A stretch of DNA of 64,000 nt from the NCBI GenBank assembly GCA_017652685.1, contig JAGCAN010000001.1:17311-81310 (forward strand). The letters are read 5' to 3'. Position 1 is the stretch's first letter. Each line of letters starts with the position of its first letter. Made by a program: the position numbers and the translations under genes. The stretch comes from Oscillospiraceae bacterium. Lineage in GTDB: Bacteria > Bacillota > Clostridia > Oscillospirales > Oscillospiraceae. The notes under the pieces were generated by a model. The model worked only from the letters and a program-made list of their open reading frames with translations, was not told the DNA's origin and searched no databases. This document shows, piece after piece, positions 1-57,526 of this stretch.

Positions 1-52
1 CCTGATCGTGGCAATCGCCTGCGCGGCAGTGCTCGGATGGAGGGATAAATAA
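1..52 (+). CDS. 3' end of small membrane/lipoprotein-like ORF (full copy at 47784-47945)
   Basis: Identical to 47894-47945. Truncated by the window edge. Confidence 0.4.
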   Translation, partial: LIVAIACAAVLGWRDK

Positions 53-298: not shown

Positions 299-319
299 AT
301 ACTCCAAGAGGATTATAGC

Positions 320-1624: not shown

Positions 1625-1635
1625 GGAGGTAACAC

Positions 1636-2910: not shown

Positions 2911-2923
2911 GGAGGAGTAATAA

Positions 2924-3361
2924 ATGGGAGACGTCTTAGATCTCAACAGCAGTATTAATCAGGAAAGTCAGTATGTAGATGTCCCGGAAGGCGAATATGA
3001 CGCCAGGATCGACCATGTCGAAAGCGGGGTCTGCCAGTGGGCCAATGAATACAACGGCAATCCGAACAGGATGGTATATGTCAACCTTGCCATGCCGGAC
3101 GGAAGTGAGGCACAGCTCCGCGACGAGTTTGTCCTCAACTCGGATTTCGAGTGGAAACTCTCACAGCTTTTCCTCGGGACCGGGCAGAAAAAGAAGGGCG
3201 AACCGCTGCCGAACCTCGGCAGGGCGCTGAATGATCTTCCGGGCCTTACATGCAGGGTCAGGGTCAAAAAGACAAAAGGCAAAGGTGACAAGAAAGATAC
3301 CACATACACAAACATCACATTCCTGGAGAAAAAGCAGCCTAAGTGGGGTGGTGGTTTCTGA
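2924..3361 (+). CDS. DUF669-like phage protein (usual partner of Sak4-type ATPases)
   Basis: Size, position directly after the AAA_24 gene, and a 'VPEGEYDARI' type N-terminus. Confidence 0.45.
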   Translation: MGDVLDLNSSINQESQYVDVPEGEYDARIDHVESGVCQWANEYNGNPNRMVYVNLAMPDGSEAQLRDEFVLNSDFEWKLSQLFLGTGQKKKGEPLPNLGRALNDLPGLTCRVRVKKTKGKGDKKDTTYTNITFLEKKQPKWGGGF

Positions 3362-4983
3362 TGATGAACCTCAGACCTTACCAGGAGCAGGCTTTCGCCG
3401 GAGTGTTCCGGGAATGGGATGGCGGCAGGCATAAGACGCTTGTCGTCATGCCAACCGGGACCGGCAAGACCATCGTGTTCGCCAAGATCGTCGAAGAATG
3501 TGTCCGGCGCGGATCGCGTGTGCTGATCATGGCACACCGCGGGGAACTCCTGGACCAGGCCGCTGACAAGATCTTCAAGGCGACCGGGCTCCGATCGTCA
3601 GTGGAGAAGGCGGAGCAGACCTGCATTGGGCAATGGTACCGCGTTGTGGTCGGATCAGTACAGACTCTGATGAGCGAGAAACGGCTGAGGCAGTTTCCGA
3701 AGGATTACTTCAATGTGATCATCGTCGATGAGGCTCATCATTGTGTCAGCTCGTCCTATCAGCGGGTACTGCAGTATTTCAGCGATTCCAACGTTCTGGG
3801 CGTCACGGCTACGCCTGACAGGGCCGACATGAAGAACCTCGGGAGCTATTTCGAGTCTTTAGCTTATGAGTACACCATGCCGGAAGCCATCCGGAGCGGA
3901 TACCTGGTGCCGATCAAGGCGCTTACGATCCCGCTCAAGATCGACATCAGCATGGTCGGGATCAGTGCCGGAGACTTCAAAGCCGGCGAGATCGGGACTG
4001 CACTTGACCCGTACCTGTTCCAGATCGCGGACGAGATGACAAGGTTCTGTAAGGACCGGAAGACGATCGTGTTCCTGCCGCTGATCGCCACATCACAGAA
4101 GTTTATGGGAATGCTCAATGAGCGGGGCTTCAGCGCGGCAGAAGTCAACGGCTCCAGCGAGGATAGGGCACAGATTCTGCAGGACTTCGAGTCTGGCAAA
4201 TACAACGTGATCTGCAATTCGATGCTGCTTACAGAAGGCTATGACTGCCCGGCAGTAGACTGCATCATTGTGCTCAGGCCGACAAGGTCAAGACCGCTTT
4301 ACGCTCAGATGATCGGACGTGGAACAAGGCTGTCCCCGGAGACCGGTAAGGGACATCTGCTGCTGATCGACTTCTTGTGGATGACGGAACGTCATGAGCT
4401 GTGCCATCCGGCCTCGTTGATCTGTGAGGATCCGGAAGTCGCCCAGCGTATGACGAAGAACCTGGAAGACAAGGCCGGCGAGGCTGTAGACATCGAAGAA
4501 GCTGAGAAGCGTGCATCTGAGGATGTGGTCGCCGAACGCGAGGAAGCACTCGCCAAGGAACTGGCAGCACAGCGCCGGAAGAAGAGCCAGCTGGTCGACC
4601 CGCTGCAGTATGCAATGAGTATCAACGCAAGGGATCTTGTCGATTATGTCCCGCCGTTCGGGTGGGCCGCTCAGGATCCTACCGCACAGCAGCGTGACAG
4701 GCTCGAGCATCTCGGGATTAATCCCGAAAATGTCAAGAGCCAGGGCGAAGCGGACATGCTCCTCAAGAAGCTCGGCGAAAGGAGCTCCGGAGGGCTTGCG
4801 ACTCCACGACAGATCAGACAGCTTGAGAACCGAGGCTTTCAAAATGTCGGGACATGGTCGTTTGATCAGGCCCGGAATCTGATCGACAGGATCGCGGCAA
4901 ACGGATGGAGAACACCAAGAGACATTAACCCTAAATCATATGTGCCTCAGGCAGATGAGCCTAAGGTATCAGGGTGGATTTGA
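3361..4983 (+). CDS. Superfamily-2 DEAD/DEAH-box helicase
   Basis: 'LRPYQEQA', 'VMPTGTGKT', 'IIVDEAHH', 'GVTATP', 'GRGTR'. ATG at 3361 overlaps the upstream stop (TGATG). Confidence 0.85.
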   Translation: MMNLRPYQEQAFAGVFREWDGGRHKTLVVMPTGTGKTIVFAKIVEECVRRGSRVLIMAHRGELLDQAADKIFKATGLRSSVEKAEQTCIGQWYRVVVGSVQTLMSEKRLRQFPKDYFNVIIVDEAHHCVSSSYQRVLQYFSDSNVLGVTATPDRADMKNLGSYFESLAYEYTMPEAIRSGYLVPIKALTIPLKIDISMVGISAGDFKAGEIGTALDPYLFQIADEMTRFCKDRKTIVFLPLIATSQKFMGMLNERGFSAAEVNGSSEDRAQILQDFESGKYNVICNSMLLTEGYDCPAVDCIIVLRPTRSRPLYAQMIGRGTRLSPETGKGHLLLIDFLWMTERHELCHPASLICEDPEVAQRMTKNLEDKAGEAVDIEEAEKRASEDVVAEREEALAKELAAQRRKKSQLVDPLQYAMSINARDLVDYVPPFGWAAQDPTAQQRDRLEHLGINPENVKSQGEADMLLKKLGERSSGGLATPRQIRQLENRGFQNVGTWSFDQARNLIDRIAANGWRTPRDINPKSYVPQADEPKVSGWI

Positions 4984-7259
4984 TGGACAACAGAACAGAT
5001 TTAGTTGAATTGCTTAAACATATAGATCCCGGGCTCCTTGACTATCAGGAATGGACGGATGTAGGCATGGCGCTCAAGCTCGATGGCTATCCCTGCAGCG
5101 TCTGGGATGACTGGAGCCGGAAGGATGCCGGACGCTATCACGCAGGTGAGTGTGCCCGGAAGTGGCGGACATTCAAACGTGACGAGGGCGTCACCGGCGG
5201 GACGATCTATCATCTGGCCGTCTCTCAGGGATGGGTACCGACACACGAAGCCGGCAGGATCCTGAGCATGGACGACTCGATCGAATATGAAGGCGTTGTG
5301 GTTGGCGAGGGATGGGCAGAGATACGCGAGTTCGATGAGCCTGCGAAATGGGAACCCGAACAGCAGCTGATCCGGTATCTCGAGACGCTCTTCCAGCCGG
5401 AGGAGATCTTCGGATATGTGACAGAGTCCTTCGAAAAAGCAGACAAGTCCGGGAAAAAGAAGCTCGTGCCCGCCAACAAGGGCGTGTATACGCTCCGCGT
5501 AGGCGAGATCGTGCAGAGGCTTAAGAGCGACACCATTGAGGATGTTATCGGCAAATACAAGCACGAAGCCGGCGCGTGGATCCGCTTCAATCCATTGGAT
5601 GGGAACGGCGTCAACAACGAGAACGTGACGGATTACCGGTACGCTCTGGTCGAGTCGGACAACATGTCCCTGGAAGCGCAGAACGGCCTGATCAGGCAGC
5701 TTAACCTGCCCGTAGCGGTCCTGATGTACTCCGGCGGCAAGAGTGTCCATGCGATCGTAAAAATCGAGGCAGATGACAAGCAGGAGTACCAGAAGCGTGT
5801 CAATTACCTGTACGACGTCTGCAAGAAGAACGGCATGGTGATCGATACGCAGAACCGGAACCCTTCCAGGCTGTCCAGAATGCCGGGATGTGAACGAGGA
5901 GAAAAAAAGCAGTTCATTATCGATACGAACATCGGCTGTAAGTCCTGGTCAGAATGGCATGAGTGGATCGAGGCTGTGAATGATGATCTTCCGGATATGG
6001 AGGAGCTTTCATCGGAATGGGACAGCCTTCCGCCACTGGCTCCGGAGCTGATCAAAGGAGTGCTCCGGGAAGGCCACAAGATGCTGATCGTGGGACCCTC
6101 TAAAGCCGGCAAGTCCTTTGACCTCATAGAGCTGTGTATAGCGATCGCTGAGGGCAGGTCATGGCATGGATGGGACTGTATGAAGGGACGTGTCCTTTAC
6201 GTCAATCTTGAACTTGACAGGGCATCCTGTCTGCACAGGTTCCGCGACGTTTACAATGCTGCAGGGATACCGCCCAGAAGCCTCAGCAACATCGATATAT
6301 GGAACTTAAGGGGAAGATCCGTCCCAATGGATAAACTGGCTCCTAAGCTCATCAGGAGGGCCAAGGACAGGCATTACAAGGCTGTTATCATCGACCCGAT
6401 CTACAAGGTCATCACCGGCGATGAGAACTCAGCTGACCAGATGGCCAAGTTCTGTAACCAGTTCGATAAGGTGTGCACAGAGCTGGGAGCCTCAGTGATC
6501 TATTGTCATCACCACTCTAAAGGATCACAGGGACAGAAGAAATCGATGGACAGGGCGTCAGGCTCCGGAGTCTTCGCAAGGGATCCGGACGCGCTGCTGG
6601 ACATGATAGAGCTCCCGCTCACGAATGCCATAATCGCGCAGGAGACCAACAAGGCCATCTGCCGTACCTGTATCCAATACCTGACGGCTTATTGCAAGAA
6701 CATTCCGTGGGAGACAGACCTGTCGCAGGACGATAAGTTGTCGGCCGGGATCATGCAGACTTACTGCGAAAACAAGCTCGATCAGTGGCAGCAGAAAGCA
6801 CTTGCCCGTCAGCTGGAAGAGGCAGTCAAGGGAGTGGAATCGCTATCGGGATGGAGGATCGAGGGGACGCTCAGAGAGTTCCCGAAATTCAAGCCGGTCA
6901 ACACATGGTTCCGGTATCCGATCCATACGCCTGACGAGTCAGGATGCCTGCAGGATATCCAGCCGGAAAGCGAATTGACTGGATATCAGAAGATGGTGGA
7001 ACAGCGAAAGAAGAAGGCAGAGAAGAAAAAAGAGGACACGATCAATCAGATCGAGATCGCTTTCGAGGGCGTCCAACAGGACGGCGTAGCGTCAGCGATC
7101 GACATCGCGGAAGAGATCGGAGTCGCTCCGGATACCATAAAACGATGGTTCGGCAAAGGAAAACGGAGCCGTCCGGAATACAAAAAACGGTTTGAAACTT
7201 TCGAAAATCCCGACGATCATAAGCTGTTTTTGAGACGCAAAGAGGGTACGGACAGATAG
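4983..7259 (+). CDS. Primase-helicase (PriCT-2-like N-terminus, primase-polymerase-like core, AAA_25/RepA-like P-loop)
   Basis: 'YQEWTDVGMALK...WDDWS' PriCT-2-like, 'SGGKSVHAIVKI', 'IVGPSKAGKS' Walker A, 'VIIDPIYK' Walker B. ATG at 4983 overlaps the helicase stop. Confidence 0.75.
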   Translation: MDNRTDLVELLKHIDPGLLDYQEWTDVGMALKLDGYPCSVWDDWSRKDAGRYHAGECARKWRTFKRDEGVTGGTIYHLAVSQGWVPTHEAGRILSMDDSIEYEGVVVGEGWAEIREFDEPAKWEPEQQLIRYLETLFQPEEIFGYVTESFEKADKSGKKKLVPANKGVYTLRVGEIVQRLKSDTIEDVIGKYKHEAGAWIRFNPLDGNGVNNENVTDYRYALVESDNMSLEAQNGLIRQLNLPVAVLMYSGGKSVHAIVKIEADDKQEYQKRVNYLYDVCKKNGMVIDTQNRNPSRLSRMPGCERGEKKQFIIDTNIGCKSWSEWHEWIEAVNDDLPDMEELSSEWDSLPPLAPELIKGVLREGHKMLIVGPSKAGKSFDLIELCIAIAEGRSWHGWDCMKGRVLYVNLELDRASCLHRFRDVYNAAGIPPRSLSNIDIWNLRGRSVPMDKLAPKLIRRAKDRHYKAVIIDPIYKVITGDENSADQMAKFCNQFDKVCTELGASVIYCHHHSKGSQGQKKSMDRASGSGVFARDPDALLDMIELPLTNAIIAQETNKAICRTCIQYLTAYCKNIPWETDLSQDDKLSAGIMQTYCENKLDQWQQKALARQLEEAVKGVESLSGWRIEGTLREFPKFKPVNTWFRYPIHTPDESGCLQDIQPESELTGYQKMVEQRKKKAEKKKEDTINQIEIAFEGVQQDGVASAIDIAEEIGVAPDTIKRWFGKGKRSRPEYKKRFETFENPDDHKLFLRRKEGTDR

Positions 7260-7500
7260 GGACAACATCGTGCGTCCCTAGTCCCTATGGGGTACGGACA
7301 CTAGGGACAGTACCGTGCGTCCGTACCTGCCGACACCTACGGACAGATAGGGACAACATCGTGCGTCCGTGTCCCTACCCCTAGGGACGAAGGTAGGGAC
7401 GGACGATGTGTATAACACTATAGTGTCCCGTACGTACCGTCCGCGTGGGTGAGACGGAGGGTGGGTGCTAAGCACACCCACCGTCCCTACCACACACGTA
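7247..7500. repeat. Iteron cluster / putative replication origin
   Basis: 31-bp direct repeat TACGGACAGATAGGGACAACATCGTGCGTCC at 7247-7277 and 7338-7368. Nine copies of TAGGGAC/GTCCCTA. Palindromes ACACTATAGTGT and GTCCCTAccccTAGGGAC. Confidence 0.6.
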
Positions 7501-7527
7501 CGGAGACAAAACGCGAAGGGAGGATGG

Positions 7528-7929
7528 ATGGAGATTAAATTTTTTATGGCGATGGACCCGCCGACCGTGACGGCACAGGAACACAAGGTCATGGTCCGCA
7601 ACGGTAAGCCGGTGTTCTATGATCCGCCGGAGCTCAAGGCGGCCCGGCAGAAACTAACAGACTACCTGGCACAGTACAAACCCGAACAGACGCTGACCGG
7701 TCCGCTGGAGCTGGTAACGACATGGTGCTTTCCGACAGAGGCCGAGTGGCAGTACAGCAGCTATAAGATCACAAGGCCGGACACGGATAACCTTAACAAG
7801 ATGCTTAAGGACTGCATGACGGCTGTGGGGTTCTGGCATGACGACGCGCAGGTGTGCCGTGAGATCATCGAAAAGTTCTGGGTAAGTCCGAACCTGCGCG
7901 GGATCTTTGTAAAGGTCACTCAGCTATGA
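7528..7929 (+). CDS. rusA: RusA-family Holliday junction resolvase
   Basis: 'PPTVTAQEHK', 'RPDTDNLNKMLKDCM', 'WHDDAQV'. RBS gaagggagg before the ATG at 7528. Confidence 0.85.
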   Translation: MEIKFFMAMDPPTVTAQEHKVMVRNGKPVFYDPPELKAARQKLTDYLAQYKPEQTLTGPLELVTTWCFPTEAEWQYSSYKITRPDTDNLNKMLKDCMTAVGFWHDDAQVCREIIEKFWVSPNLRGIFVKVTQL

Positions 7930-8147
7930 CGCCTATGACATACTTCAGGTTCTTCCAGGACTTGTGGAGGTTTTTTAAAAATCACGCCGAGCCGGTCTCA
8001 GCTGACAGCTGGTGGCAGCGTCTCGCTGATCAGGCGGACGAGCTCGCCAATCGGTACGGCAACACTGAATTTGTGATCCGGATGACATCAATAGTCGTCT
8101 GGGAAATTGACAGAATATTTCAAGAAAAAGAGGAGATGAAAAGATGA
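7926..8147 (+). CDS. Hypothetical protein (73 aa)
   Basis: ATGA-coupled ORF between rusA and the next gene. Confidence 0.5.
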   Translation: MTPMTYFRFFQDLWRFFKNHAEPVSADSWWQRLADQADELANRYGNTEFVIRMTSIVVWEIDRIFQEKEEMKR

Positions 8148-8767
8148 AAGATATCAGAGTAAAGCTTACGTTCACAGAGCCTATCCTGGGCACAGCAAGT
8201 GCAAACCCCGAAATTCACAGTGAGTACATCGCGTCGAAAGCTCCGGACGCGCCCAGCAAGGAAGAAGAGATCGCCGCGATCGGCGCCGAGGAGTATGAGG
8301 AGAAAGCAATGACAGTCTTCCCGCGCAACAACGAGGGGATCCCGATCCTGTTTGATTACCAGATCAAGGGATTTTTCAAAGACGCATGCTCCATGCTCCA
8401 GAAGTGTCGGGCCGGGAAAGGCGGCAAGCCGGAAGAGTTCGCGAAAGAATCCTGCGCACTCAAGGCGTACAAGAAGATCATCGATGGCTGCATCTTCGTG
8501 ATGGAACGCCAGATCCCGATCGAGCTCAATGGGGAGATGGGCAACCTCCAGCGACCGCTCCGCGGACAGACAGCACAGGGCGAACGGATCGCGCTGGCCA
8601 ACAGTGAGAAGGCCCCGGCAGGAAGTTCGGTGGAATTTACGATCAGGTGCCTGTCTGATACATACGCGCCGGCAGTGATGGAATGGCTGAACTACGGAGC
8701 CCTCAGGGGCATTGGCCAGTGGCGCAACGGATCATACGGCAGGTTCGAGTACAAGATCATCGAATAA
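8144..8767 (+). CDS. Hypothetical protein with RAMP-like sequence motifs (207 aa)
   Basis: 'IRVKLTFTEPILGTAS', 'GIPILFDYQIKGFFKDA', 'SEKAPAGSSVEFTI', and a C-terminal Gly-rich 'GALRGIGQWRNGSYGRFEY'. Motif-level resemblance only. Confidence 0.6.
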   Translation: MKDIRVKLTFTEPILGTASANPEIHSEYIASKAPDAPSKEEEIAAIGAEEYEEKAMTVFPRNNEGIPILFDYQIKGFFKDACSMLQKCRAGKGGKPEEFAKESCALKAYKKIIDGCIFVMERQIPIELNGEMGNLQRPLRGQTAQGERIALANSEKAPAGSSVEFTIRCLSDTYAPAVMEWLNYGALRGIGQWRNGSYGRFEYKIIE

Positions 8768-9633
8768 GCAGCGGAAAGGCTATCTGTCGCAAGGCAGAGC
8801 GACGGCATGGCGCTGACGGGCACAGTAACGCATAGCAAAGGCACGGATGGGAAAGGCGTAGCAACGGCATGGCAATGACGAGCTTAGAGATGCGAAGGCG
8901 ATGCACAGAGCCGCAAAGACGCGCAAAGGCTTAGTTGGGCAAATCGCAGAAAGCAAAGCAAAAGGCGAAGCAGTGCAATGCTTTGCAAGGGCAAGGCTCA
9001 TCAACGGGCGGCAAAGGCTAGGCTGTGTGGGGCAAGGCAGTGGCAACGAAAGGTAGTGCCCTGCAAAGGCAAGGCGAAGTTAGTCGGGGTGATGCGATGG
9101 CAAAAGCAGAGAAATGAGCGCCAAGCGGTGGCAAGGTGAAGCGAAGCGGTGGCAAGGCAAGGCATGTCGTGGCAAAACAGAGCAATGGCAGTGCAAATCG
9201 GAGTGCGGCAATGGCATAGCTCGGAATATCGCGGCATGGCAGCGGAATTGCAGAGATAGGTTATGCGACGGCATAGCATCACATTGCGGAGACCGGCAAA
9301 GGCGAGGAGTAGACGAGCGGATCCAAGGCAACGATTGGCAGCGAGTAGGGTCGCAAAGGCTTAGCACATCAATGACACGCTAAGGCTATGCAGAGACTAT
9401 TTTCGCTCAGCAGTGGAACTGTACAGCCACGGCATCGCAGAGGCTTGGCAATAGCTAAACGGAGCATAGCGGGGCGGAGCAACGGCATAGCAAGGAAATA
9501 CTAAGGACGCAGAGGCATTGCGAAGCGGCACGGAGCAGAGGCGATGAGGGGCTGAGCAGAGAAAAGCAGAGGATCAGCATAAAAGAGCGAAGCAAGGGCA
9601 ACAGTAACATCAGCAAAAGAAGGAGGATGAAAG
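8768..9633 (+). other. ORF-free, purine-skewed, GGCA-word-rich non-coding block (possible ncRNA or protein-binding array)
   Basis: All three stop codon types occur in every + frame. T is scarce (7 of 60 nt at 8941-9000). More than 30 GGCA words by manual count. Local duplications. Confidence 0.6.
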
Positions 9634-10023
9634 ATGGAAAATATGATCCTGATCAACGGAACAAAACTTAAGGCAGTCATCGCCGAGTGGGAACAGATAG
9701 GAGGCTACAGCGAAGGCGAAAAGAATATCCTGAGAGCCGTTATCAATGAGATCGAAGAGGCAATGGAGAACGGCCCGTGGATCCCGGTGGCTGAAGGGCT
9801 TCCGGAAGAGCCCGGCGAGTATCTGGTCACGGCCAGATGGGACGAGGATGAACCGTACGCGATCTTCATTGCGGACTACGGCAACAAGATAGATCCCAGG
9901 TGGGACGGCAGCCACAAGGTCTTCCAAAATGGTTTTGCGTTCGGCGAGATCTGGGGCGACAGCCTCGATAACCTCTTCGAGGTCACGGCCTGGATGCCTA
10001 AGCAGGAAACATATCAGTCATGA
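9634..10023 (+). CDS. DUF551-like phage protein
   Basis: 'GPWIPVAEGLPEEPGEYLVTARW' matches the DUF551 pattern. RBS aaggagga upstream. Confidence 0.55.
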   Translation: MENMILINGTKLKAVIAEWEQIGGYSEGEKNILRAVINEIEEAMENGPWIPVAEGLPEEPGEYLVTARWDEDEPYAIFIADYGNKIDPRWDGSHKVFQNGFAFGEIWGDSLDNLFEVTAWMPKQETYQS

Positions 10024-10205
10024 AACTGGTAAACGCGCATGCGGGAATGGAAATCGGTATCTGTAAATTAAACGATAAGCCGGCATTATACATCCAGGAC
10101 GGACAGTGGTGCAGGATATATGCAACTTTTTTGTCAGAGGAAAAAGCCGAGATGTTCCTGCACAAGCTGAAAAAATGGGACTTACATGGAGGGAATGATG
10201 GATAA
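10020..10205 (+). CDS. Hypothetical protein (61 aa)
   Basis: ATGA-coupled small ORF. Confidence 0.45.
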   Translation: MKLVNAHAGMEIGICKLNDKPALYIQDGQWCRIYATFLSEEKAEMFLHKLKKWDLHGGNDG

Positions 10206-10554
10206 CGTCTATTCACAAATGTTGATAACTGCAAAAAACGCCGGCATAAATGTGGTCGGTAAACATAAGGCAGCAAAACTCCTTGCACTCTGTTGCGCGA
10301 TAGGGGACGAACCGTTTGTGTTTAACAAAAAGCTGTATGAAGATGTCATGTATGCGGCTGATGTAACAGGAATTAAGCACATGAATTATCCGCTTGAGGA
10401 AATAACGTCTCTTATCAACAAATACTACAACGATTTGCAGATTGGGACAGCAGACTGGGTGCAGGAAATCAACGAAGAATATAAAACGAAGTTTCCAAAA
10501 AAAATGGAATCTGATGGAAGAGAGAAACTGATATGGCCGTCTATGCTTATTTAA
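10186..10554 (+). CDS. Hypothetical protein (122 aa)
   Basis: ORF in a low-GC accessory segment. No motif recognised. Confidence 0.5.
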   Translation: MEGMMDNVYSQMLITAKNAGINVVGKHKAAKLLALCCAIGDEPFVFNKKLYEDVMYAADVTGIKHMNYPLEEITSLINKYYNDLQIGTADWVQEINEEYKTKFPKKMESDGREKLIWPSMLI

Positions 10555-11165
10555 GAGTATCAACCGGAAAACAGGATGGAGAAAACCAGCGTCTTGGAGT
10601 TGATGAACTCGCAAAAAGGCTTGGTCTTGAAATCACAGAATACATCGATGATGAAGGCGTGAGTGGGACGAAAGAACCTGAAAAGCGCGAACTTGGAAAA
10701 CTGTTAAAGAAACTGAAACCAGGTGATGTACTTCTTGCCGGTGAAATTTCAAGACTCGGAAGATCACTATTCATGGTCATGAGGATATTGGAATATTGCA
10801 TGAATAACGACATAAGGGTCTATACAGCAAAAGATGGGTACGAGCTTGGTGACAACATTCAGTCTAAGGTTCTCGCATTTGCGTTCGGGCTATCCGCTGA
10901 GATTGAGCGTGAAATGATCAGTAGGCGAACAAAAGAGGCGCTTGCCAAGAAGCGGGCAGAAGGTGTGATTCTTGGCCGTCCCAAAGGGAGAAAATCAGGA
11001 CAGGTAAAACTTTCCGGGAAAGCGCACGATATCAAGGTACTGTTGGATTACGGAATCCCAAAAATGCAAATTGCGAAAAAGATGAAGGTTAACCGTAATA
11101 CGCTCGCGACATACCTGAAAGAAAGATATGAAGATGAACTTCTTGAACTTAAAAAGGAGAAATAG
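10533..11165 (+). CDS. Small serine recombinase (resolvase/invertase family) with C-terminal HTH
   Basis: 'YAYLRVSTGKQ' catalytic Ser region, 'GDVLLAGEISRLGRS', C-terminal 'IAKKMKVNRNTLATYLK'. Confidence 0.85.
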   Translation: MAVYAYLRVSTGKQDGENQRLGVDELAKRLGLEITEYIDDEGVSGTKEPEKRELGKLLKKLKPGDVLLAGEISRLGRSLFMVMRILEYCMNNDIRVYTAKDGYELGDNIQSKVLAFAFGLSAEIEREMISRRTKEALAKKRAEGVILGRPKGRKSGQVKLSGKAHDIKVLLDYGIPKMQIAKKMKVNRNTLATYLKERYEDELLELKKEK

Positions 11166-11167
11166 AT

Positions 11168-11920
11168 ATGAAAAACACCTGCAAGACCTGCACGCACAGC
11201 AAGCCCACGTACAAGGGCTATCGGTGCGAAATCAAGGGCAAAAAGACCAAGCTGACCGACACATGCAAAGACTGGTCACGCAAGGCAGGCATCATCCTGC
11301 TCGCCCTGATCCTGTCCGCCACACCGCTCACCGTACACGCACAGGGACGTGACTGGTGGCCGGATCAAGTGGAACAGGATGACTACTACCACAACCTTGA
11401 CAAGTTTGGCGAGTGGCCAGGGGACGTCATCACCAACGAGACAATGATCGAGACGGTAACCTTCCGCCCGAAAGTGCTGTCGGCGGTGACGTACAGCAAA
11501 AGCACCAAGATAACCGTGGATGCCACGACGGCAGCGAGAGTGATCATTGTACGGTACACGACAGACGGTAAGCACTGGGAACAGCGGAGCTTCCGGAACA
11601 TGAGCTACAAAGGCCCAGTCACAGCGCACAGGAAATGGCAGGTGAAAGCATACGTCAAGGAAAACAGATACTCCTCATGGTGCGCGAGGCAGTTTAAGCA
11701 AGCTGGCAAGACGATCGACTACAAAAAGACGGCAATGCTTAACAGCCCGATGGCCCAATTGTATTTCGACGACCACTTGATCGACGGTATCCGCAGGAAG
11801 GTAGCCAGTCCGGTCACGCTGAACATTCCCGTCAGGGCGAGGAGGATCAGAATTCGATATGCATACACGGGGCTGAAAAGGGAATGTTACTCCGAGTGGG
11901 CCGAGGTGAAAGCGAGGTAA
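11168..11920 (+). CDS. Membrane-anchored protein with N-terminal Cys cluster
   Basis: 'CKTCTHSKPTYKGYRCE...DTCKDW' followed by TM segment 'AGIILLALILSATPLTV'. The remainder is probably extracytoplasmic. Confidence 0.55.
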   Translation: MKNTCKTCTHSKPTYKGYRCEIKGKKTKLTDTCKDWSRKAGIILLALILSATPLTVHAQGRDWWPDQVEQDDYYHNLDKFGEWPGDVITNETMIETVTFRPKVLSAVTYSKSTKITVDATTAARVIIVRYTTDGKHWEQRSFRNMSYKGPVTAHRKWQVKAYVKENRYSSWCARQFKQAGKTIDYKKTAMLNSPMAQLYFDDHLIDGIRRKVASPVTLNIPVRARRIRIRYAYTGLKRECYSEWAEVKAR

Positions 11921-11924
11921 TGAA

Positions 11925-12152
11925 ATGTTTGACAAAAATGCAATCGCCAGAAATCTCAGAAAACACATGGAAGAGAAAAACATAAGCATAAACAAACTGG
12001 CCAGATTGGCCGATGTGATGCCGAGCACAGTTTGGCAATACATACATGGATATAGTACGCCAGTTATCTACAATCTGTATAAAATCAGCAAAGTACTCGG
12101 AATAAGCGTTGATAACCTGATCAAAGGGATAGACGACGGGAAAGAGGATTGA
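11925..12152 (+). CDS. XRE-family HTH regulator
   Basis: 'ISINKLARLADVMPSTVWQYIHG...ISKVLGISVDNLI'. Confidence 0.75.
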   Translation: MFDKNAIARNLRKHMEEKNISINKLARLADVMPSTVWQYIHGYSTPVIYNLYKISKVLGISVDNLIKGIDDGKED

Positions 12153-12155
12153 GCA

Positions 12156-12830
12156 GTGAACAGGATAAAAGACATCATCAAAGTGATTGATCAGATATCC
12201 GGAAGGTATTCGGCGTATGAAGTATTCACAGATTGGATCAGGTGCATGGCGATGTCAATATGCAATACGGTCTCGCCGATCCATGACAAAGTATGGCAGG
12301 AACGGGAACAGTCCTATATGGATACAATGCGGAAATACACGCCTGAAGAACAGGTCAAACTCTGTGAAATGATGTTGTGGCTCGTAGAGACACTGGATGA
12401 CGGCCCGTATGATGTCCTCGGGAAAATCTACATGGACGCCGGCATGGGAAGTAAAGCGGCCGGCCAGTTCTTCACACCATTTCATCTGTCAGTACTTACG
12501 GCAAAAATGTCATTGGGAGAATCAATTGAGTCATATCGGGATGAAATGACTAAGTTGGACATCAATGAACCGACATGCGGAGGAGGGGCGATGATCATCG
12601 CAGCAGCCAAAGTGTTGCAGGATGAAGGGATCAATTACCAGAAGGTGATGAAAGTGGTAGCACAGGATCTTGACTGGAAAGGAGTGTATATGTGCTATGT
12701 GCAGCTCAGTCTTCTGGGAATAGATGCGATTTGTGTGCAAGGCAATACGCTGGCTGATCCTTATGTTCCTGGCAAGACAGACAGGTCGCATATCATGAGG
12801 ACTCCGAAAAATATGGGGGTGCTGCTATGA
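12156..12830 (+). CDS. N6-adenine methyltransferase-like protein lacking catalytic motif IV
   Basis: 'GQFFTPFHL', 'INEPTCGGGAMI' (SAM motif I), 'VAQDLD', 'GNTL', then it stops with no NPPF/NPPY. GTG start. Confidence 0.6.
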   Translation: MNRIKDIIKVIDQISGRYSAYEVFTDWIRCMAMSICNTVSPIHDKVWQEREQSYMDTMRKYTPEEQVKLCEMMLWLVETLDDGPYDVLGKIYMDAGMGSKAAGQFFTPFHLSVLTAKMSLGESIESYRDEMTKLDINEPTCGGGAMIIAAAKVLQDEGINYQKVMKVVAQDLDWKGVYMCYVQLSLLGIDAICVQGNTLADPYVPGKTDRSHIMRTPKNMGVLL

Positions 12831-13915
12831 GTGATCAAAAAGAAAAGTTCAAAGACGAACTGATCATCGCACTCACGCCGTTCCTGCAGCCGGAATACAT
12901 CGAGGCCGTGAAAGCGAAGATCACGATCCTGACACACAACTACGAGATATCGAAGGCGGAAAACGAGATCATAGTCTACGAAGGAGACGTGAACGAGCGG
13001 ATTGTAAAAAGGTATCTCATGGCGAAGACGGCACAGGGGCTGTCGAAGAGGACGATAGAGTTCTATCAGCTGTCGTTGGAGCTCTTTTTCGGGGAAATAC
13101 AGAAACCGTTTACACAGATCACGGCCGACGACATCCGGTATTGGATCGCACTGAAACTGTCAAGGGACGGCGTGTCAAAGACAGGAGTGAACAACTACAG
13201 AAGGAACATCAGCGCTTTTTATACATGGCTGCAGAAAGAAGAGATCCTCCTCAAGAACCCGATGAACAAGGTCCCGCCGCTAAAGGAGACAAAGAAAAAG
13301 AAGCACGCGTTTGAACTCCTCGACCTAGAACTTATACGGATGGGATGCAGGGACGAGAGACAGAAGGCAATGGTGGAAATGCTCACATCGACATGGTGCC
13401 GGGCGGACGAACTGGTCAACATCAGGACGGATGATGTCGAAGAGGGCCGCGTGATGATACACGGCAAAGGAGACAAATACAGATACGTATTCATTAATGC
13501 CAGGGCAAAGCTCGCCTTAGATGTGTACCTGAATCAGAGAAAGGATAACAACCCATATCTGTTCCCGAGAGCCAAAAATATTTTGGGGAATATTGATAAA
13601 TATTCCAGACATGCGAAAGAAACGGGAACAGGCGCATGGGAATGGTGGAAGGATCCTGAGATGGTAAGCGAAGACGGCCACATAGACGAGAGCACGCTGG
13701 GCTCGATTATTAGGAAGATAGGACAAAGGGCGGGAGTCAAAAATGTCCACCCGCACAGATTCCGCAGGACAGGAGCAACGATGGCGCTCAGGGCCGGAAT
13801 GCCGATCACAACAGTATCTAAGCTGCTTGGGCACGAGAGTATTGAGACGACACAGATCTATCTGGATATCTCAGACAAGGACCTGGAGCAGGCACATGAG
13901 AAATATGTGTTCTAA
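12827..13915 (+). CDS. Tyrosine recombinase (XerC/D-like), paralog 1
   Basis: 'HPHRFRRTGATMAL', 'LLGHESIETTQIYL'. SAM-like N-domain 'SKRTIEFYQLSLELFF'. ATGA overlap with the upstream gene. Confidence 0.85.
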   Translation: MSDQKEKFKDELIIALTPFLQPEYIEAVKAKITILTHNYEISKAENEIIVYEGDVNERIVKRYLMAKTAQGLSKRTIEFYQLSLELFFGEIQKPFTQITADDIRYWIALKLSRDGVSKTGVNNYRRNISAFYTWLQKEEILLKNPMNKVPPLKETKKKKHAFELLDLELIRMGCRDERQKAMVEMLTSTWCRADELVNIRTDDVEEGRVMIHGKGDKYRYVFINARAKLALDVYLNQRKDNNPYLFPRAKNILGNIDKYSRHAKETGTGAWEWWKDPEMVSEDGHIDESTLGSIIRKIGQRAGVKNVHPHRFRRTGATMALRAGMPITTVSKLLGHESIETTQIYLDISDKDLEQAHEKYVF

Positions 13916-13943
13916 ATTGTCGGAAAGCGAGGTGACCATAAAT

Positions 13944-14150
13944 ATGGCTAATGGCAGCTATCACTTCTGCAGGGACTGTATCCACCATCACGGGATCACT
14001 ACCAGAGAGGCCAGGAAAGACGGGCACACATTTATCGTGCAGAAGTGCCCGGTATCCAGCGGAGAGTCATGGTGGTACAAAGCAGATTACGGAAAGCTCT
14101 TACACACCTGCCCGGAGTTCAGCCCGGAGCAGATACAGATGGAGGTTTGA
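13944..14150 (+). CDS. Small Cys-rich protein (68 aa)
   Basis: Internal ATG at 13944 after RBS-like gaaagcgaggtga. 'CRDCIHHH...CPVS'. Confidence 0.45.
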   Translation: MANGSYHFCRDCIHHHGITTREARKDGHTFIVQKCPVSSGESWWYKADYGKLLHTCPEFSPEQIQMEV

Positions 14151-14153
14151 AAG

Positions 14154-14399
14154 ATGAAGAATACATTGACAAATTTGAATAACTACCTGTTCGAGCAGCT
14201 GGAGCGGCTTAATGATGACTCGCTTTCGGAGGAAGAGCTCGATCGAGAGATGAAGAAGGCCGACGCGATCGTCAAGGTCTCCGACAAGATCATACAGACC
14301 GGCGAGCTCGCCCTCCGGACGATCAAGCATCGGGATGAATACGGATACAACAACAAGACCAATCAGATGCCGGACATCCTCCAGCTTGAGGCGAAGTGA
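14154..14399 (+). CDS. Hypothetical protein (81 aa)
   Basis: ORF tightly spaced with its neighbours. Confidence 0.5.
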   Translation: MKNTLTNLNNYLFEQLERLNDDSLSEEELDREMKKADAIVKVSDKIIQTGELALRTIKHRDEYGYNNKTNQMPDILQLEAK

Positions 14400-14400
14400 T

Positions 14401-15414
14401 ATGGGGATCCATGACAGATATCCTCCGGAAGTCCACGAGTTTGTAAAGCACATGTCCCCGAAGCTTAGAGATATTGATCTGGCACATGCGTGCAATGTTG
14501 AGCTTGGGACCAGTTTCACAAAGTCCAGCATGAAGGCGTTCCGATACAACCATGGATACCTTAACGGTAAAGGCAAGCTGACAAGTGAGGAATACTGGAA
14601 GTATCAGACCAGGTATCCGCAAGGCATGTACGAGTTCATCCGTGACAATTCCTGGAATGTCAGTTCTGAAGAGATGGCCAATATGACAAATGAGAAGTTC
14701 GGCACTAACTGGACTAAGACAGGAATGAAACAGTTTCGGCAGCGCCACGGGATCAAGTCCGGCCTGAAAGGCTGGTTCCAGAAGGGGCATCCCCCTGGGA
14801 ATAAGGGCAAGAAACAGTCAGAGTATTGCAGTCCGGAAGCGATCGAAAAAAGCCGTAAGACACAGTTCAAAAAAGGGCATAAGCCAGTAAATGAGCTGCC
14901 GGTCGGATCAGTCGTCGTCAACTCATACGGATACCTGCTCCGCAAGACGCGGATGGAAGGTAAGTTGTGGGACCGCTGGGAGTTTGTGCACAGGGCTGTC
15001 TGGGAAGAGCATAACGGCCCGGTCCCGCCGTATATGGTCGTCGCCTTTAAGGATGGCAATAAGATGCACTGCAACATAGACAACCTGATGCTTATTACTC
15101 AGAGCGAGAACATGACACTTACACACCTTAATCTCCGCTCCGAGGATCCTGACCTGACAGAGGCAGGGCTCAATCTTGCAAGGGTAAAGACAAAGCTCCG
15201 GAAGCTCCGGAACGCTGGCGACATAAAGACTGGGCAGAATATCCTAAGGGTAATGGATGAGAAGAATATCACGAAGGAAGAGCTCGCGAAAATGGTAGGC
15301 GTGTCCAAATACACGCTCTGGAATTATATCAAGGGATATAACCCCGTACCTGATCCGCGCCTCGGGCAGATCGCAAATGCGCTTGGTGTGTCAAAACAGG
15401 AATTGAGACCTTAA
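14401..15414 (+). CDS. HNH_3-type homing-endonuclease-like protein with C-terminal XRE HTH
   Basis: 'VHRAVWEEHNGPVP...FKDGNKMHCNIDNLMLITQSEN'. Two 'TK..MK.FR..HG' repeats. C-terminal 'ELAKMVGVSKYTLWNYIKG'. Confidence 0.7.
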   Translation: MGIHDRYPPEVHEFVKHMSPKLRDIDLAHACNVELGTSFTKSSMKAFRYNHGYLNGKGKLTSEEYWKYQTRYPQGMYEFIRDNSWNVSSEEMANMTNEKFGTNWTKTGMKQFRQRHGIKSGLKGWFQKGHPPGNKGKKQSEYCSPEAIEKSRKTQFKKGHKPVNELPVGSVVVNSYGYLLRKTRMEGKLWDRWEFVHRAVWEEHNGPVPPYMVVAFKDGNKMHCNIDNLMLITQSENMTLTHLNLRSEDPDLTEAGLNLARVKTKLRKLRNAGDIKTGQNILRVMDEKNITKEELAKMVGVSKYTLWNYIKGYNPVPDPRLGQIANALGVSKQELRP

Positions 15415-15569
15415 CCCGTCCGGACGGTTAAGCATATACCGGAACAGGCAACCATCAACGCACGAGACAACAGAAAGGAGGATCCTTCTTGCGGTGTGCG
15501 GCGCGATTATTGCGAATGTGAATACCAGGCCCGCGGGGGAACCGGCGCGGGCATTATGAGGAGGAGAAA

Positions 15570-15908
15570 ATGGAATGCATTATTTCGGGAAGAAGGTCTG
15601 GGCGAACAACTAAAATGATTGAAATGTGCGCGGAGCACCCGGGATCGGTAATAGTCGCACCGAATCAAAGGGCTGCCGAATCCATATTTCATATGGCGGT
15701 CATGATGGGGAAGCAGATCCCATTCCCTATGACGTTCAATCATTTCGCGTTCAGATGTTACACAAAAGGCCAATACAAAGAGTACCTGTTTGACGACCTG
15801 GACAGATCCCTTCAGCTTATGGCCGGATCCGGCAGGGTTGCAGCGGCAACAATGGAAAGCGAGGAAAGCATATGGATAAGAGAGCAATTGATGAGCTGCT
15901 CGATATAA
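15570..15908 (+). CDS. Hypothetical protein with P-loop-like 'GRRSGRTT'
   Basis: RBS gaggagga before the ATG. Motif only. Confidence 0.45.
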   Translation: MECIISGRRSGRTTKMIEMCAEHPGSVIVAPNQRAAESIFHMAVMMGKQIPFPMTFNHFAFRCYTKGQYKEYLFDDLDRSLQLMAGSGRVAAATMESEESIWIREQLMSCSI

Positions 15909-55822: not shown

Positions 55823-56040
55823 CGCCTATGACATACTTCAGGTTCTTCCAGGACTTGTGGAGGTTTTTTAAAAATCACGCCGAGCCGGTCTCAGCTGACA
55901 GCTGGTGGCAGCGTCTCGCTGATCAGGCGGACGAGCTCGCCAATCGGTACGGCAACACTGAATTTGTGATCCGGATGACATCAATAGTCGTCTGGGAAAT
56001 TGACAGAATATTTCAAGAAAAAGAGGAGATGAAAAGATGA
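55819..56040 (+). CDS. Hypothetical protein (second copy of 7926-8147)
   Basis: Identical translation at +47,893. Confidence 0.5.
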   Translation: MTPMTYFRFFQDLWRFFKNHAEPVSADSWWQRLADQADELANRYGNTEFVIRMTSIVVWEIDRIFQEKEEMKR

Positions 56041-56660
56041 AAGATATCAGAGTAAAGCTTACGTTCACAGAGCCTATCCTGGGCACAGCAAGTGCAAACC
56101 CCGAAATTCACAGTGAGTACATCGCGTCGAAAGCTCCGGACGCGCCCAGCAAGGAAGAAGAGATCGCCGCGATCGGCGCCGAGGAGTATGAGGAGAAAGC
56201 AATGACAGTCTTCCCGCGCAACAACGAGGGGATCCCGATCCTGTTTGATTACCAGATCAAGGGATTTTTCAAAGACGCATGCTCCATGCTCCAGAAGTGT
56301 CGGGCCGGGAAAGGCGGCAAGCCGGAAGAGTTCGCGAAAGAATCCTGCGCACTCAAGGCGTACAAGAAGATCATCGATGGCTGCATCTTCGTGATGGAAC
56401 GCCAGATCCCGATCGAGCTCAATGGGGAGATGGGCAACCTCCAGCGACCGCTCCGCGGACAGACAGCACAGGGCGAACGGATCGCGCTGGCCAACAGTGA
56501 GAAGGCCCCGGCAGGAAGTTCGGTGGAATTTACGATCAGGTGCCTGTCTGATACATACGCGCCGGCAGTGATGGAATGGCTGAACTACGGAGCCCTCAGG
56601 GGCATTGGCCAGTGGCGCAACGGATCATACGGCAGGTTCGAGTACAAGATCATCGAATAA
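56037..56660 (+). CDS. RAMP-like-motif protein (second copy of 8144-8767)
   Basis: Identical translation at +47,893. Confidence 0.6.
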   Translation: MKDIRVKLTFTEPILGTASANPEIHSEYIASKAPDAPSKEEEIAAIGAEEYEEKAMTVFPRNNEGIPILFDYQIKGFFKDACSMLQKCRAGKGGKPEEFAKESCALKAYKKIIDGCIFVMERQIPIELNGEMGNLQRPLRGQTAQGERIALANSEKAPAGSSVEFTIRCLSDTYAPAVMEWLNYGALRGIGQWRNGSYGRFEYKIIE

Positions 56661-57526
56661 GCAGCGGAAAGGCTATCTGTCGCAAGGCAGAGCGACGGCA
56701 TGGCGCTGACGGGCACAGTAACGCATAGCAAAGGCACGGATGGGAAAGGCGTAGCAACGGCATGGCAATGACGAGCTTAGAGATGCGAAGGCGATGCACA
56801 GAGCCGCAAAGACGCGCAAAGGCTTAGTTGGGCAAATCGCAGAAAGCAAAGCAAAAGGCGAAGCAGTGCAATGCTTTGCAAGGGCAAGGCTCATCAACGG
56901 GCGGCAAAGGCTAGGCTGTGTGGGGCAAGGCAGTGGCAACGAAAGGTAGTGCCCTGCAAAGGCAAGGCGAAGTTAGTCGGGGTGATGCGATGGCAAAAGC
57001 AGAGAAATGAGCGCCAAGCGGTGGCAAGGTGAAGCGAAGCGGTGGCAAGGCAAGGCATGTCGTGGCAAAACAGAGCAATGGCAGTGCAAATCGGAGTGCG
57101 GCAATGGCATAGCTCGGAATATCGCGGCATGGCAGCGGAATTGCAGAGATAGGTTATGCGACGGCATAGCATCACATTGCGGAGACCGGCAAAGGCGAGG
57201 AGTAGACGAGCGGATCCAAGGCAACGATTGGCAGCGAGTAGGGTCGCAAAGGCTTAGCACATCAATGACACGCTAAGGCTATGCAGAGACTATTTTCGCT
57301 CAGCAGTGGAACTGTACAGCCACGGCATCGCAGAGGCTTGGCAATAGCTAAACGGAGCATAGCGGGGCGGAGCAACGGCATAGCAAGGAAATACTAAGGA
57401 CGCAGAGGCATTGCGAAGCGGCACGGAGCAGAGGCGATGAGGGGCTGAGCAGAGAAAAGCAGAGGATCAGCATAAAAGAGCGAAGCAAGGGCAACAGTAA
57501 CATCAGCAAAAGAAGGAGGATGAAAG
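56661..57526 (+). other. Purine-skewed GGCA-rich non-coding block (second copy of 8768-9633)
   Basis: Same sequence at +47,893. Confidence 0.6.

What the first reader, a model, noticed from the sequence alone, without database searches (positions are those of the whole stretch)
8768..9633. 860-bp ORF-free, purine-skewed block built from GGCA/GCAAAGGC words
Seen: in a genome where genes otherwise overlap or abut, 8768-9633 has no credible ORF. TAA, TAG and TGA all interrupt every + frame. The 88-95-aa ORFs in the track are Cys/Ala/Arg low-complexity artefacts.

The + strand is strongly purine-rich and T-poor, for example 7 T and 12 C in 8941-9000. By my manual count GGCA occurs more than 30 times, often as TGGCA. 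Degenerate 8-10-mers recur: GCAAAGGC, GGCAAGGC, GGCATGGC, CGGCATAGCA, GCAGAGGC.

Local duplications:
- AAGCGGTGGCAAGG at 9123-9136 and 9144-9157.
- ACGGCATGGCnnTGACG at 8802-8818 and 8864-8880.
- CGCAAAGGCTTAG at 8922-8934 and 9352-9364.

It is not a CRISPR array, because there is no fixed repeat and spacer period. It is co-oriented with the flanking early genes, so it should be transcribed as an A/G-rich RNA.

Inference, three options:
(a) a long non-coding RNA acting as a multivalent sponge or scaffold for an RNA-binding protein, either the upstream RAMP-like protein or a host factor;
(b) a G-rich non-template stretch that promotes an R-loop or priming in the replication module;
(c) a degenerate DNA-binding-site array.

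I know of no described element with this composition in this genomic context.
Basis: partly seen in the sequence, partly recalled or inferred. Interest (0 to 1): 0.7.

Follow-up and report, generated by a model that had tools for sequence, protein, structure and literature searches.

The report
Phage VIPR guide-RNA repeat array
The ORF-free, GGCA-rich block is the guide-RNA repeat array of a phage VIPR system, an RNA-guided gene-silencing system related to CRISPR and first described in 2026 preprints; it sits next to its RAMP-type protein gene and has an unusual punctuated repeat pattern.

Summary
Window 8768-9633 has no ORF, is 67% purine and carries 34 GGCA.

It is about 167 tandem 5-nt units, xG[C/T]NN. 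An extra base falls every 5-7 units, giving a sharp 5.19-nt periodicity over about 830 nt.

The upstream 207-aa gene (8144-8767) folds as a Cas7/Csm3-like RAMP. A profile of its family aligns end to end with the characterised Vipr protein of phage SUSP1 (E 1.6e-5).

112 of 160 homologous phage and prophage loci carry the same kind of array directly beside the gene, on the gene's strand.

This matches VIPR (Viral Interference Programmable Repeat; bioRxiv 2026, PMC13142463). There, Vipr protomers bind one pentanucleotide repeat each, and the variable bases guide binding to the DNA of competing phages.

This locus uses the YNNNG repeat variant, one of the alternative repeat types the authors list. 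The two protein residues that read the first G in SUSP1 are replaced here, and that G is correspondingly degenerate.

I found no tail, no accessory gene and no target. Expression and targeting are inferred, not shown.

Verdict: a new member of a very recently described kind.

The parts
8144..8767 (+). vipr gene: a 207-aa single-RRM RAMP (Cas7/Csm3-like) protein. Its G-loop reads GIGQWRNGSYGRF (residues 189-201) and it has a conserved thumb hairpin (residues 133-157).
   Evidence: AF2 model with pLDDT 83 and pTM 0.77. The top Foldseek PDB hits are all Cas7/Csm3/Cmr4, with 8z4j_J at E 5e-8 and 195 hits at E<=1e-3. hhalign of a 64-sequence family profile against SUSP1 Vipr ALH47069.1 gives Prob 79%, E 1.6e-5 and 174 colinear columns. 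No Pfam or PHROG family matches. The family has 1961 clusters at 50% identity.
8768..9633 (+). vrRNA-type tandem repeat array. It holds about 167 units of xG[C/T]NN (equivalent to YNNNG): 136-138 pentamers and 29 hexamers, arranged in about 29 modules of 26, 31 or 36 nt. The register runs from about 8773 to about 9597. The last 35 nt carry the RBS of the next gene.
   Evidence: Period 5.186 nt with power 28.5 and no subharmonics. Phase is constant within about 0.5 nt over the whole block. G occupies about 80% of register points from 8773 to 9597 and drops outside. Segmentation without the lattice gives the same result. The same arrays sit beside homologous genes in 112 of 160 loci.
8804..8839 (+). 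Example of one module: GGCat GGCgc TGAcg GGCac AGTaa CGCat AGCaaa. It starts with a canonical GGC unit, has inner xGY units, and closes with a hexamer xGCAAN.
   Evidence: Over 43 arrays the closing hexamer is x-G(99%)-C(88%)-A(62%)-A(81%)-N. The next unit is G(97%)-G(99%)-[C 62%/A 32%]-A(73%)-[A/T].
56037..56660 (+). The same vipr gene seen again, because the window runs past the end of the 47,893-bp genome.
   Evidence: Window 1-16107 is identical to 47894-64000.
56661..57526 (+). The same array seen again. It is not an independent second copy.

Best explanation
Window 8144-9633 is a VIPR (Viral Interference Programmable Repeat) locus of a temperate phage of Oscillospiraceae/Clostridia. It consists of a vipr gene encoding a minimal RAMP protein, followed on the same strand by its repeat array.

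Shown here:
- The protein has a Cas7-like fold and is homologous to SUSP1 Vipr.
- The block is a tandem 5-nt repeat with one nearly invariant G, a following pyrimidine and three variable positions (YNNNG).
- An extra G every 5-7 units cuts the array into modules of about 31 nt.
- Gene and array travel together through about 112 of 160 otherwise different phage contexts.

Inferred from the SUSP1 and P. fulva work (preprints):
- The array is transcribed with the early genes.
- Vipr protomers polymerise on the RNA, one per repeat. The G-loop W193/R194 and thumb arginines hold the conserved G and Y.
- The variable bases are presented for non-contiguous pairing with double-stranded DNA of a competing phage or prophage. 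Binding there represses transcription.

My own inference:
- Because the two residues that read the first G in SUSP1 (H17, D177) are T17 and Q192 here, and that position is variable in the RNA, this family may read three variable bases per repeat.
- Each module of about 31 nt may be one short guide.
For: - Fold.
- Faint sequence signals to Cas7_IIId, RAMPs and Csm4.
- Homology to the experimentally characterised Vipr, with G-loop GxG(Q/D)WR..GRF aligned.
- Repeat structure.
- Linkage of gene and array on either side of the gene, always on the same strand, with variable neighbours.
- Substitutions between related arrays avoid the G (1.4%) and hit positions 1, 4 and 5 equally (5.5-6.0%).
- In-frame stop triplets among the three variable bases are depleted, 86 observed against 117 +/- 7. 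This fits the repeat-to-codon correspondence reported for VIPR.
- Literature description of VIPR: RAMP homologue, long flanking intergenic regions, pentanucleotide repeats, alternative YNNNG repeats, and a phage or prophage location (PMC13142463; 10.64898/2026.04.26.720927).
- Internal control: L025 and L126 carry a second Vipr that keeps His and Glu at the two G1-reading positions. Its array keeps G1 at 86-91%.
Against: - I have no expression, processing or binding data for this locus.
- No target was found. The local search with 0-3-nt skip rules gave no excess. Five exact scans of viral contigs with patterns from this array and one with a pattern from the L025 array gave one hit, which is probably chance.
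- Canonical features are absent: G1 is degenerate, tracts are 5-7 units rather than 9-16, there is no conserved 3' tail, and there is no conserved accessory (vap) gene.
- Similarity to SUSP1 Vipr is remote: 26% identity and hhalign probability 79%.
- The supporting literature is two preprints from one laboratory. I could not see their figures or data tables to assign a type.
Confidence: 0.85

Rival explanations
1. The RNA is only a multivalent scaffold or sponge. The RAMP protein coats it, as type IV-B Csf2 coats non-CRISPR RNA, to form a filament with a non-guide role such as sequestration, protection or an anti-CRISPR decoy.
For: The protein-RNA pairing is supported. No target was found for any module. 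Tracts of 5-7 units seem short for a specific guide.
Against: The variable positions turn over four times faster than the scaffold G and show codon-like stop avoidance. That pattern is expected of information-carrying positions, not of a sponge. Homologous systems are shown to be guides (PMC13142463).
Confidence: 0.07
2. The block acts as double-stranded DNA. It is a phased binding-site lattice with one site per half helical turn (2 x 5.16 = 10.3 bp). It would serve as a replication origin or iteron field, or as a centromere, for the neighbouring protein or the primase-helicase.
For: The period is 5.159 +/- 0.019 nt in 43 arrays, about half the B-DNA repeat, with long-range phase coherence. 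The block lies in the replication and recombination module.
Against: Coherence follows simply from the narrow module size: 5-7 units plus one extra G. No 10.3-nt component is present. Period does not correlate with predicted twist. The array follows the RAMP gene, not the primase. All sites share one orientation with the gene. Known relatives of the protein bind RNA.
Confidence: 0.04
3. The G-rich non-template strand promotes an R-loop at the locus that primes replication.
For: The strand shows purine and G skew. The block is close to the primase, helicase and RusA genes.
Against: Related arrays can be G/T-rich instead of G/A-rich, as in L009. The conserved feature is a single G register, not purine content. 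The array also occurs in loci whose fetched flanks show no primase.
Confidence: 0.02
4. The block is a decaying remnant of a protein-coding gene, or a gene read with an alternative genetic code.
For: It occupies a gene-sized gap in a tightly packed genome.
Against: All three stop codons occur in every frame. The period is 5.19 nt, not 3. The equivalent region is ORF-free and periodic in more than 100 diverged relatives.
Confidence: 0.01

Closest known systems
VIPR systems (Viral Interference Programmable Repeat), type II of Escherichia phage SUSP1 and a Pseudomonas fulva prophage (PMC13142463; bioRxiv 10.64898/2026.04.26.720927)
   Same: - A small single-RRM RAMP protein with a G-loop and a thumb.
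- The gene is flanked on the same strand by long non-coding tandem pentanucleotide repeats with a fixed G-containing motif and variable bases.
- It is encoded by a phage or prophage.
- G-loop residues W-R are conserved (W193/R194 here, W178/R179 in SUSP1).
- I confirmed the SUSP1 locus layout myself.
   Different: - The repeat is xGYNN (YNNNG) rather than GGYNN.
- The G1-reading residues H17 and D177 are T17 and Q192.
- Tracts are 5-7 units closed by an extra base, not 9-16 units.
- There is no pseudoknot tail and no conserved vap gene.
- The array is one continuous run of about 167 units.
- The host is Clostridia.
- The target rule is untested.
[quoted passage not shown]
   Same: A continuous array without tails, in which the pentamer register shifts by one base between successive tracts.
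   Different: The arrays I take to be of that kind lie next to a second, canonical-like Vipr in L025 and L126. They shift by -1 (a 4-nt unit) every 12-20 units and keep GGY. The array here shifts by +1 (a 6-nt unit) every 5-7 units. I could not see the figure to check the equivalence.
Class 1 CRISPR backbone: Cas7/Csm3 filament on crRNA
   Same: The protein fold, the thumb hairpin and the C-terminal glycine-rich loop. One protomer binds per short fixed stretch of RNA.
   Different: - The period is 5 nt rather than 6.
- The RNA is a degenerate tandem repeat, not repeat-spacer units.
- There is no cas1/cas2, Cas5, Cas6, Cas10 or Cas8, and no adaptation module.
- The system is encoded by the virus.
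Type IV-B Csf2 (Cas7-like) filaments assembled on non-CRISPR RNA (PMC7937560)
   Same: A Cas7-like protein polymerises on RNA that is not a crRNA.
   Different: There the RNA is heterogeneous cellular RNA, and the filament needs a Cas11 partner. Here a dedicated periodic RNA is encoded beside the gene.

Membership tests
VIPR | Vipr protein: a minimal RAMP of about 20 kDa with a single RRM core, a glycine-rich loop and a thumb. | tested here: met
   The protein is 207 aa. The AF2 model shows an RRM core, a long beta-hairpin at residues 133-157 and a C-terminal G-rich loop. The Foldseek top hits are Cas7/Csm3 across the full length.
VIPR | Sequence homology to an experimentally characterised Vipr (SUSP1 ALH47069.1). 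| tested here: met
   hhalign of the family profile A2 against SUSP1 Vipr gives Prob 79%, E 1.6e-5 and 174 columns, covering residues 1-192 of 195. The narrower profile A1 gives E 2.2e-4. The similarity is remote (26% identity), so support is moderate rather than strong.
VIPR | Residues holding G2 and Y3 of the repeat (SUSP1 W178, R179 and thumb R138). | tested here: met
   W193 and R194 align with W178 and R179. They are invariant among close relatives and at least 90% conserved in the wider 64-sequence alignment. R137 and R140 in the thumb are invariant, but their alignment to R138 is not secure.
VIPR | Residues reading G1 (SUSP1 H17, D177). | tested here: not met
   The aligned residues are T17 and Q192. 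This matches the RNA: position 1 is G in only 28-40% of inner units. A second Vipr in L025 and L126 keeps H and E, and its array keeps G1 at 86-91%.
VIPR | The vipr gene is flanked by a long intergenic tract of tandem pentanucleotide repeats on the same strand. | tested here: met
   for the window. 112 of 160 homologous loci have such an array: 99 downstream and 16 upstream. The orientation was checked in the 80 viral loci and is always that of the gene.
VIPR | Repeat consensus YNNGG (GGY alternating with NN), or one of the authors' alternatives (NNNGG, YNNNG, NNNNG). | tested here: met
   The canonical GGY occurs only at module starts. The inner units are xG[C/T]NN, which equals YNNNG, an alternative named in the supplement.
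VIPR | vrRNA of 9-16 repeats followed by a conserved 3' tail (type II). | tested here: not met
   Tracts are 5-7 units, mean 5.85. There is no recurring non-periodic tail, no Rfam family and no hammerhead. The authors describe other array architectures, so this feature is type-specific.
VIPR | An accessory vap gene next to vipr. | tested here: inconclusive
   No gene cluster is consistently adjacent across the 80 viral loci. The window has a 73-aa ORF upstream and a weak DUF551-like ORF downstream, neither with a DNA-binding assignment.
VIPR | The variable bases match DNA of competing phages under the 1-nt skip rule. | tested here: inconclusive
   Decimated-database BLAST over 1.37 Mb of local loci showed no real excess for any skip rule. 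Exact scans of viral contigs gave 0, 1, 0 and 0 hits for four patterns from this array. A fifth pattern, taken from the L025 array, also gave none. The single hit is out of codon frame and lies in an AT-rich contig.
VIPR | vrRNAs are expressed, processed and co-purify with Vipr. | not testable with these tools
   No transcriptome data are available for this phage. No cultured phage in the phage collection carries the gene.
CRISPR-Cas | An array of identical repeats separated by unique spacers, with cas genes including adaptation genes. | tested here: not met
   No repeat-spacer period is found by TRF or the repeat finder. The only Rfam CRISPR hit is E 6.1. The one RAMP gene is the only Cas-like gene.
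Iteron-type replication origin | Direct repeats of about 10-22 bp phased with the helix, next to an AT-rich unwinding element and an initiator gene. | tested here: not met
   The unit is 5 nt with no 10.4-nt component. GC content is 55-57% throughout with no AT-rich element. The array tracks the RAMP gene, not the primase.

The most novel reading that the evidence does not exclude
This very large Clostridia-phage family (1961 clusters at 50% identity) may be a compact VIPR variant with its own code.

- Having lost the two G1-reading residues, the protein would hold only G-Y.
- It would present three variable bases per repeat, a trinucleotide code possibly without a skipped target base.
- The extra G every 5-7 units would mark the start of short guides of about 31 nt, each about one helical turn of filament.
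- This phage would then carry about 29 guides head to tail.

I found neither the punctuation nor the residue-base co-variation in the preprint text I could read.
Probability: 0.3. Interest if true: 0.65.

Novelty: new member of a known kind. Interest (0 to 1): 0.5.

Why it matters
VIPR is reported as a new mode of RNA-guided DNA recognition and as a possible ancestor of CRISPR RAMPs. So far it has been characterised in only two Proteobacteria-associated systems.

This locus and its relatives show that a very abundant branch in gut Clostridia phages uses a different repeat grammar: YNNNG units in punctuated modules of about 31 nt.

The change in the protein's base-reading residues matches the change in the RNA. 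That gives a natural experiment on how the protein-RNA code is set.

If the three variable bases are all read, the targeting rule and the design space for programmable tools would widen.

For the scan itself, this kind of ORF-free periodic block beside a small unannotated gene is now an explained class. A simple Fourier test at about 5 nt will recognise it.

Tried and rejected
- Known RNA families: the Rfam E-value search found only chance hits.
- Tandem Repeats Finder: it saw nothing real because the units are too degenerate.
- DNA similarity to deposited phages: none.
- Coding or recoded gene: rejected. Stops occur in all frames and the period is not 3.
- Higher-order repeat of 26, 31, 57 or 83 nt: no subharmonic power.
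- Half-helical-turn DNA lattice: I took this seriously because 2 x 5.16 = 10.3 and the phase is coherent over more than 600 nt.
  - Predicted twist does not track the period.
  - The narrow module size explains the coherence.
- Unstructured-RNA idea: rejected. The MFE z-score is -2.65, so the RNA is not less structured than shuffles.
- Replication origin tied to the primase: rejected. The array follows the RAMP gene into loci with RecT and exonuclease modules.
- Fusion partners of longer homologues: uninformative.
- Target searches gave no convincing target:
  - NN with 0-3 skipped bases and NNN with 0-3 skipped bases against 1.37 Mb of related loci.
  - Six exact scans of viral contigs.
- The Minerva preprint that surfaced in a search could not be opened.

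Full report
**1. The observation**

The block 8768-9633 is as described.
- It is 866 nt with A277 G305 C175 T109, which is 67% purine against 57% for the window. All three stop codons occur in every + frame, and it carries 34 GGCA.
- The quoted word counts, the three local duplications and the count of 7 T and 12 C in 8941-9000 are all correct.
- The listed 88-95-aa ORFs are minus-strand low-complexity artefacts.
- Six independent assemblies of the same phage leave the 866 nt uncalled and differ by 0-2 bases.
- The window is a 47,893-bp genome read past its end: 1-16107 equals 47894-64000. The block therefore reappears at 56661-57526 as the same DNA.

**2. Hidden order**

Identity autocorrelation peaks at lags 5, 10/11, 15/16, 21, 26, 31 and onward. 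It stays at 0.40-0.42, against a 0.24 background, out to lags above 600.
- The spectrum has a single line at 5.186 nt with power 28.5. The shuffle maximum is 4.7 and the genome median is 1.7. Apart from its harmonic and two weak local maxima (power 4.1-4.7, no higher than the shuffles), there is nothing else at 10.4, 26, 31, 57 or 83 nt.
- The phase of the GC dinucleotide stays within about 0.5 nt across the block.
- A dynamic-programming segmentation that knows nothing of the lattice gives 167 units: 136-138 pentamers and 29 hexamers. They form runs of 4-6 pentamers closed by a hexamer, and the unit after each hexamer is nearly always GGC.
- TRF and Rfam see nothing because the units are degenerate.

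**3. The neighbour gene**

The 207-aa ORF at 8144-8767 has no Pfam or PHROG family.
- Its AlphaFold model (pLDDT 83, pTM 0.77) matches Cas7/Csm3/Cmr4 RAMPs over its whole length. The best hit is type VII Cas7 8z4j_J at E 5e-8, and 195 hits have E<=1e-3.
- Sequence signals are faint: Csm4/Cas7 at the G-rich loop, PADLOC Cas7_IIId at E 0.01, and Pfam RAMPs at E 0.23.
- The family is very large. More than 8000 90%-clusters share words with it, and there are 1961 clusters at 50% identity.
- The exact protein is annotated only as hypothetical, in an Oscillospiraceae MAG.

**4. Gene and array travel together**

I examined 80 viral contigs and 80 bacterial genome contigs encoding homologues at 46-75% identity. 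Most of the genome contigs are Clostridia MAGs.
- A period scan left free over 4.4-6.6 nt found a block of period 5.07-5.23 directly beside the gene in 112 loci. It lies downstream in 99 and upstream in 16.
- In the 80 viral loci the G-rich strand is always the gene's strand.
- Almost no other periodic blocks occur in these loci.
- The other neighbours vary: lysogeny switch, RecT plus exonuclease, or Sak4 plus primase modules.
- The words are conserved but the positions are not.
- One array, in L009, is G/T-rich rather than G/A-rich. The constant feature is therefore the G register, not purine content.

**5. The grammar across 43 non-redundant arrays (3472 units)**

- The period is 5.159 +/- 0.019 nt, and G occupies 82% of register points.
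- G occupancy follows a real-valued lattice. Both flanking bases are G where the lattice point falls between two bases.
- Inner units are x-G(94%)-[C 52%, T 16%, A 26%]-N-N.
- Every 5-7 units (mean 5.85) a hexamer occurs: x-G(99%)-C(88%)-A(62%)-A(81%)-N. It is followed by G(97%)-G(99%)-[C/A]-A(73%)-[A/T].
- In all 14 long arrays tested, the observed Fourier power exceeds all 200 shuffles of unit order. Hexamer spacing is therefore regular.
- With module sizes this narrow, the expected phase error is only about 0.2 nt per module. That is enough to give the apparent non-integer lattice.
- I therefore drop the DNA half-turn idea (2 x 5.16 = 10.3 bp). It also failed a twist-correlation test, although that test had little power.
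- Between related arrays, indels are mostly whole units.
- Substitutions avoid the G (1.4%) and to some extent the Y (4.0%). Positions 1, 4 and 5 change at 5.5-6.0%.

**6. Identification**

Full-text searches led to two preprints from one laboratory.
- PMC13142463 reports VIPR systems. [quoted passage not shown]
- The vrRNAs are built of 9-16 YNNGG repeats plus a tail. One-repeat-to-one-codon targeting skips the wobble base.
- Natural targets are competing phages, satellites and lysis-lysogeny regulators.
- There are seven types with variable arrays: staggered, ribozyme-interspersed or single.
- The supplement names alternative repeats NNNGG, YNNNG and NNNNG.
- The structural preprint (10.64898/2026.04.26.720927) shows one protomer per repeat. 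G1 is read by H17 and D177, G2 by thumb R138 and W178, and Y3 by R179.

**7. Tests against the reference**

- I located the SUSP1 locus in KT454805.2. ALH47069.1 is 195 aa, followed by a 146-aa gene and flanked by 450- and 530-nt gaps full of strict GGYNN pentamers.
- A 64-sequence profile of the window's family aligns with SUSP1 Vipr end to end, with hhalign Prob 79% and E 1.6e-5.
- In that alignment, G189-I-G-Q192-W193-R194 aligns with G174-V-G-D177-W178-R179, and T17 aligns with H17.
- The G2 and Y3 readers are therefore kept and the two G1 readers are replaced. This fits the degenerate first position of the repeat here (28-40% G).
- A natural control exists. L025 and L126 carry a second Vipr gene with LIVHAW and GIGEWRP motifs (BLASTP against SUSP1, E 2e-8). 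It is followed by an array with G1 at 86-91%, G2 at 86-92%, Y at 94-96%, and a 4-nt unit every 12-20 units. I take this to be the authors' 'staggered, 1-nt overlapping' type.

**8. What remains untested**

- I found no conserved tail, no accessory gene and no target.
- Among triplets formed by the three variable bases, in-frame stop codons are depleted: 86 observed against 117 +/- 7 on permutation. After TA, A and G are under-represented and T is over-represented. This hints that one repeat corresponds to one codon, and that the first position also carries target information.
- Searches under NN and NNN rules with 0-3 skipped bases gave no excess over controls in 1.37 Mb of related loci. The apparent excess for the 1-nt skip came from one low-complexity query.
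- Five exact scans of viral contigs with patterns from this array, and one with a pattern from the L025 array, gave one 21-nt hit. It lies at L168 7139-7159 in a Lys/Glu-rich ORF, out of codon register, in an AT-rich contig. I treat it as chance.
- No cultured phage in the deposited collection carries the gene, so no experimental data exist for this branch.

**9. Verdict**

The block is the repeat (guide-RNA) array of a VIPR locus, and the upstream gene is its Vipr protein.
- The kind has been known since April 2026.
- This is a new member from a very abundant Clostridia-phage branch, using the YNNNG repeat variant and a +1 punctuated module structure.
- I did not find that structure in the preprint text available to me.

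Noticed in passing
window 1-16107 and 47894-64000: The two stretches are identical base for base. The window is therefore a 47,893-bp circular or terminally redundant phage genome read past its end. Every feature in the first 16.1 kb appears twice.
   Followed up: yes
L025 3331-4480 and L126 5917-6950: Some related phages carry a second, different VIPR system in tandem. Its Vipr is 225-247 aa with LIVHAW and GIGEWRP motifs. It is followed by a canonical GGYNN array of period 4.92, with a 4-nt unit every 12-20 units, and then by a conserved gene of about 150 aa (MVY[KQ]...EWRDD).
   Followed up: partly
L143 3884-3975 (minus strand): A perfect TTGACA-17-TATAAT promoter lies on the strand opposite to vipr. 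About 30 nt downstream is a 15-bp-stem terminator. Together they could give a small antisense RNA of about 60-90 nt just upstream of the vipr start.
   Followed up: no
L168 7139-7159 (minus strand): An exact 21-nt match to the concatenated variable triplets of the module at window 9322-9357. It lies inside a 206-aa Lys/Glu-rich ORF of an unrelated AT-rich viral contig, out of codon register and with no match for the adjacent modules. It is probably chance.
   Followed up: partly
window 23255-23288 (minus strand): The best local hit under the 1-nt skip rule. Units 17-28 of the array of L037 match 22 of 23 positions here, inside the 404-aa ORF 22955-24169. The score is no higher than in the control skip rules.
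   Followed up: partly
L009 5630-6124: This array keeps the G register at period 5.16, but its variable positions are T-rich (31% T, 58% purine).
   Followed up: partly
window 8799-8812, 8861-8874, 9265-9278, 9426-9439, 9479-9492: A 14-nt word, GC[GA]ACGGCAT[AG]GCA, recurs five times at irregular spacing (62, 404, 161 and 53 nt). Versions of it open the arrays of several relatives. It is a strong form of the module junction and could be a nucleation or processing site.
   Followed up: partly
window 9447-9545: Within the array, G occupancy of the register drops to 4-5 of 10 points and the phase slips by about half a base. The segmentation also becomes irregular here, with modules of 2, 2, 6 and 11 units. 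This may be a decayed or differently organised stretch.
   Followed up: no
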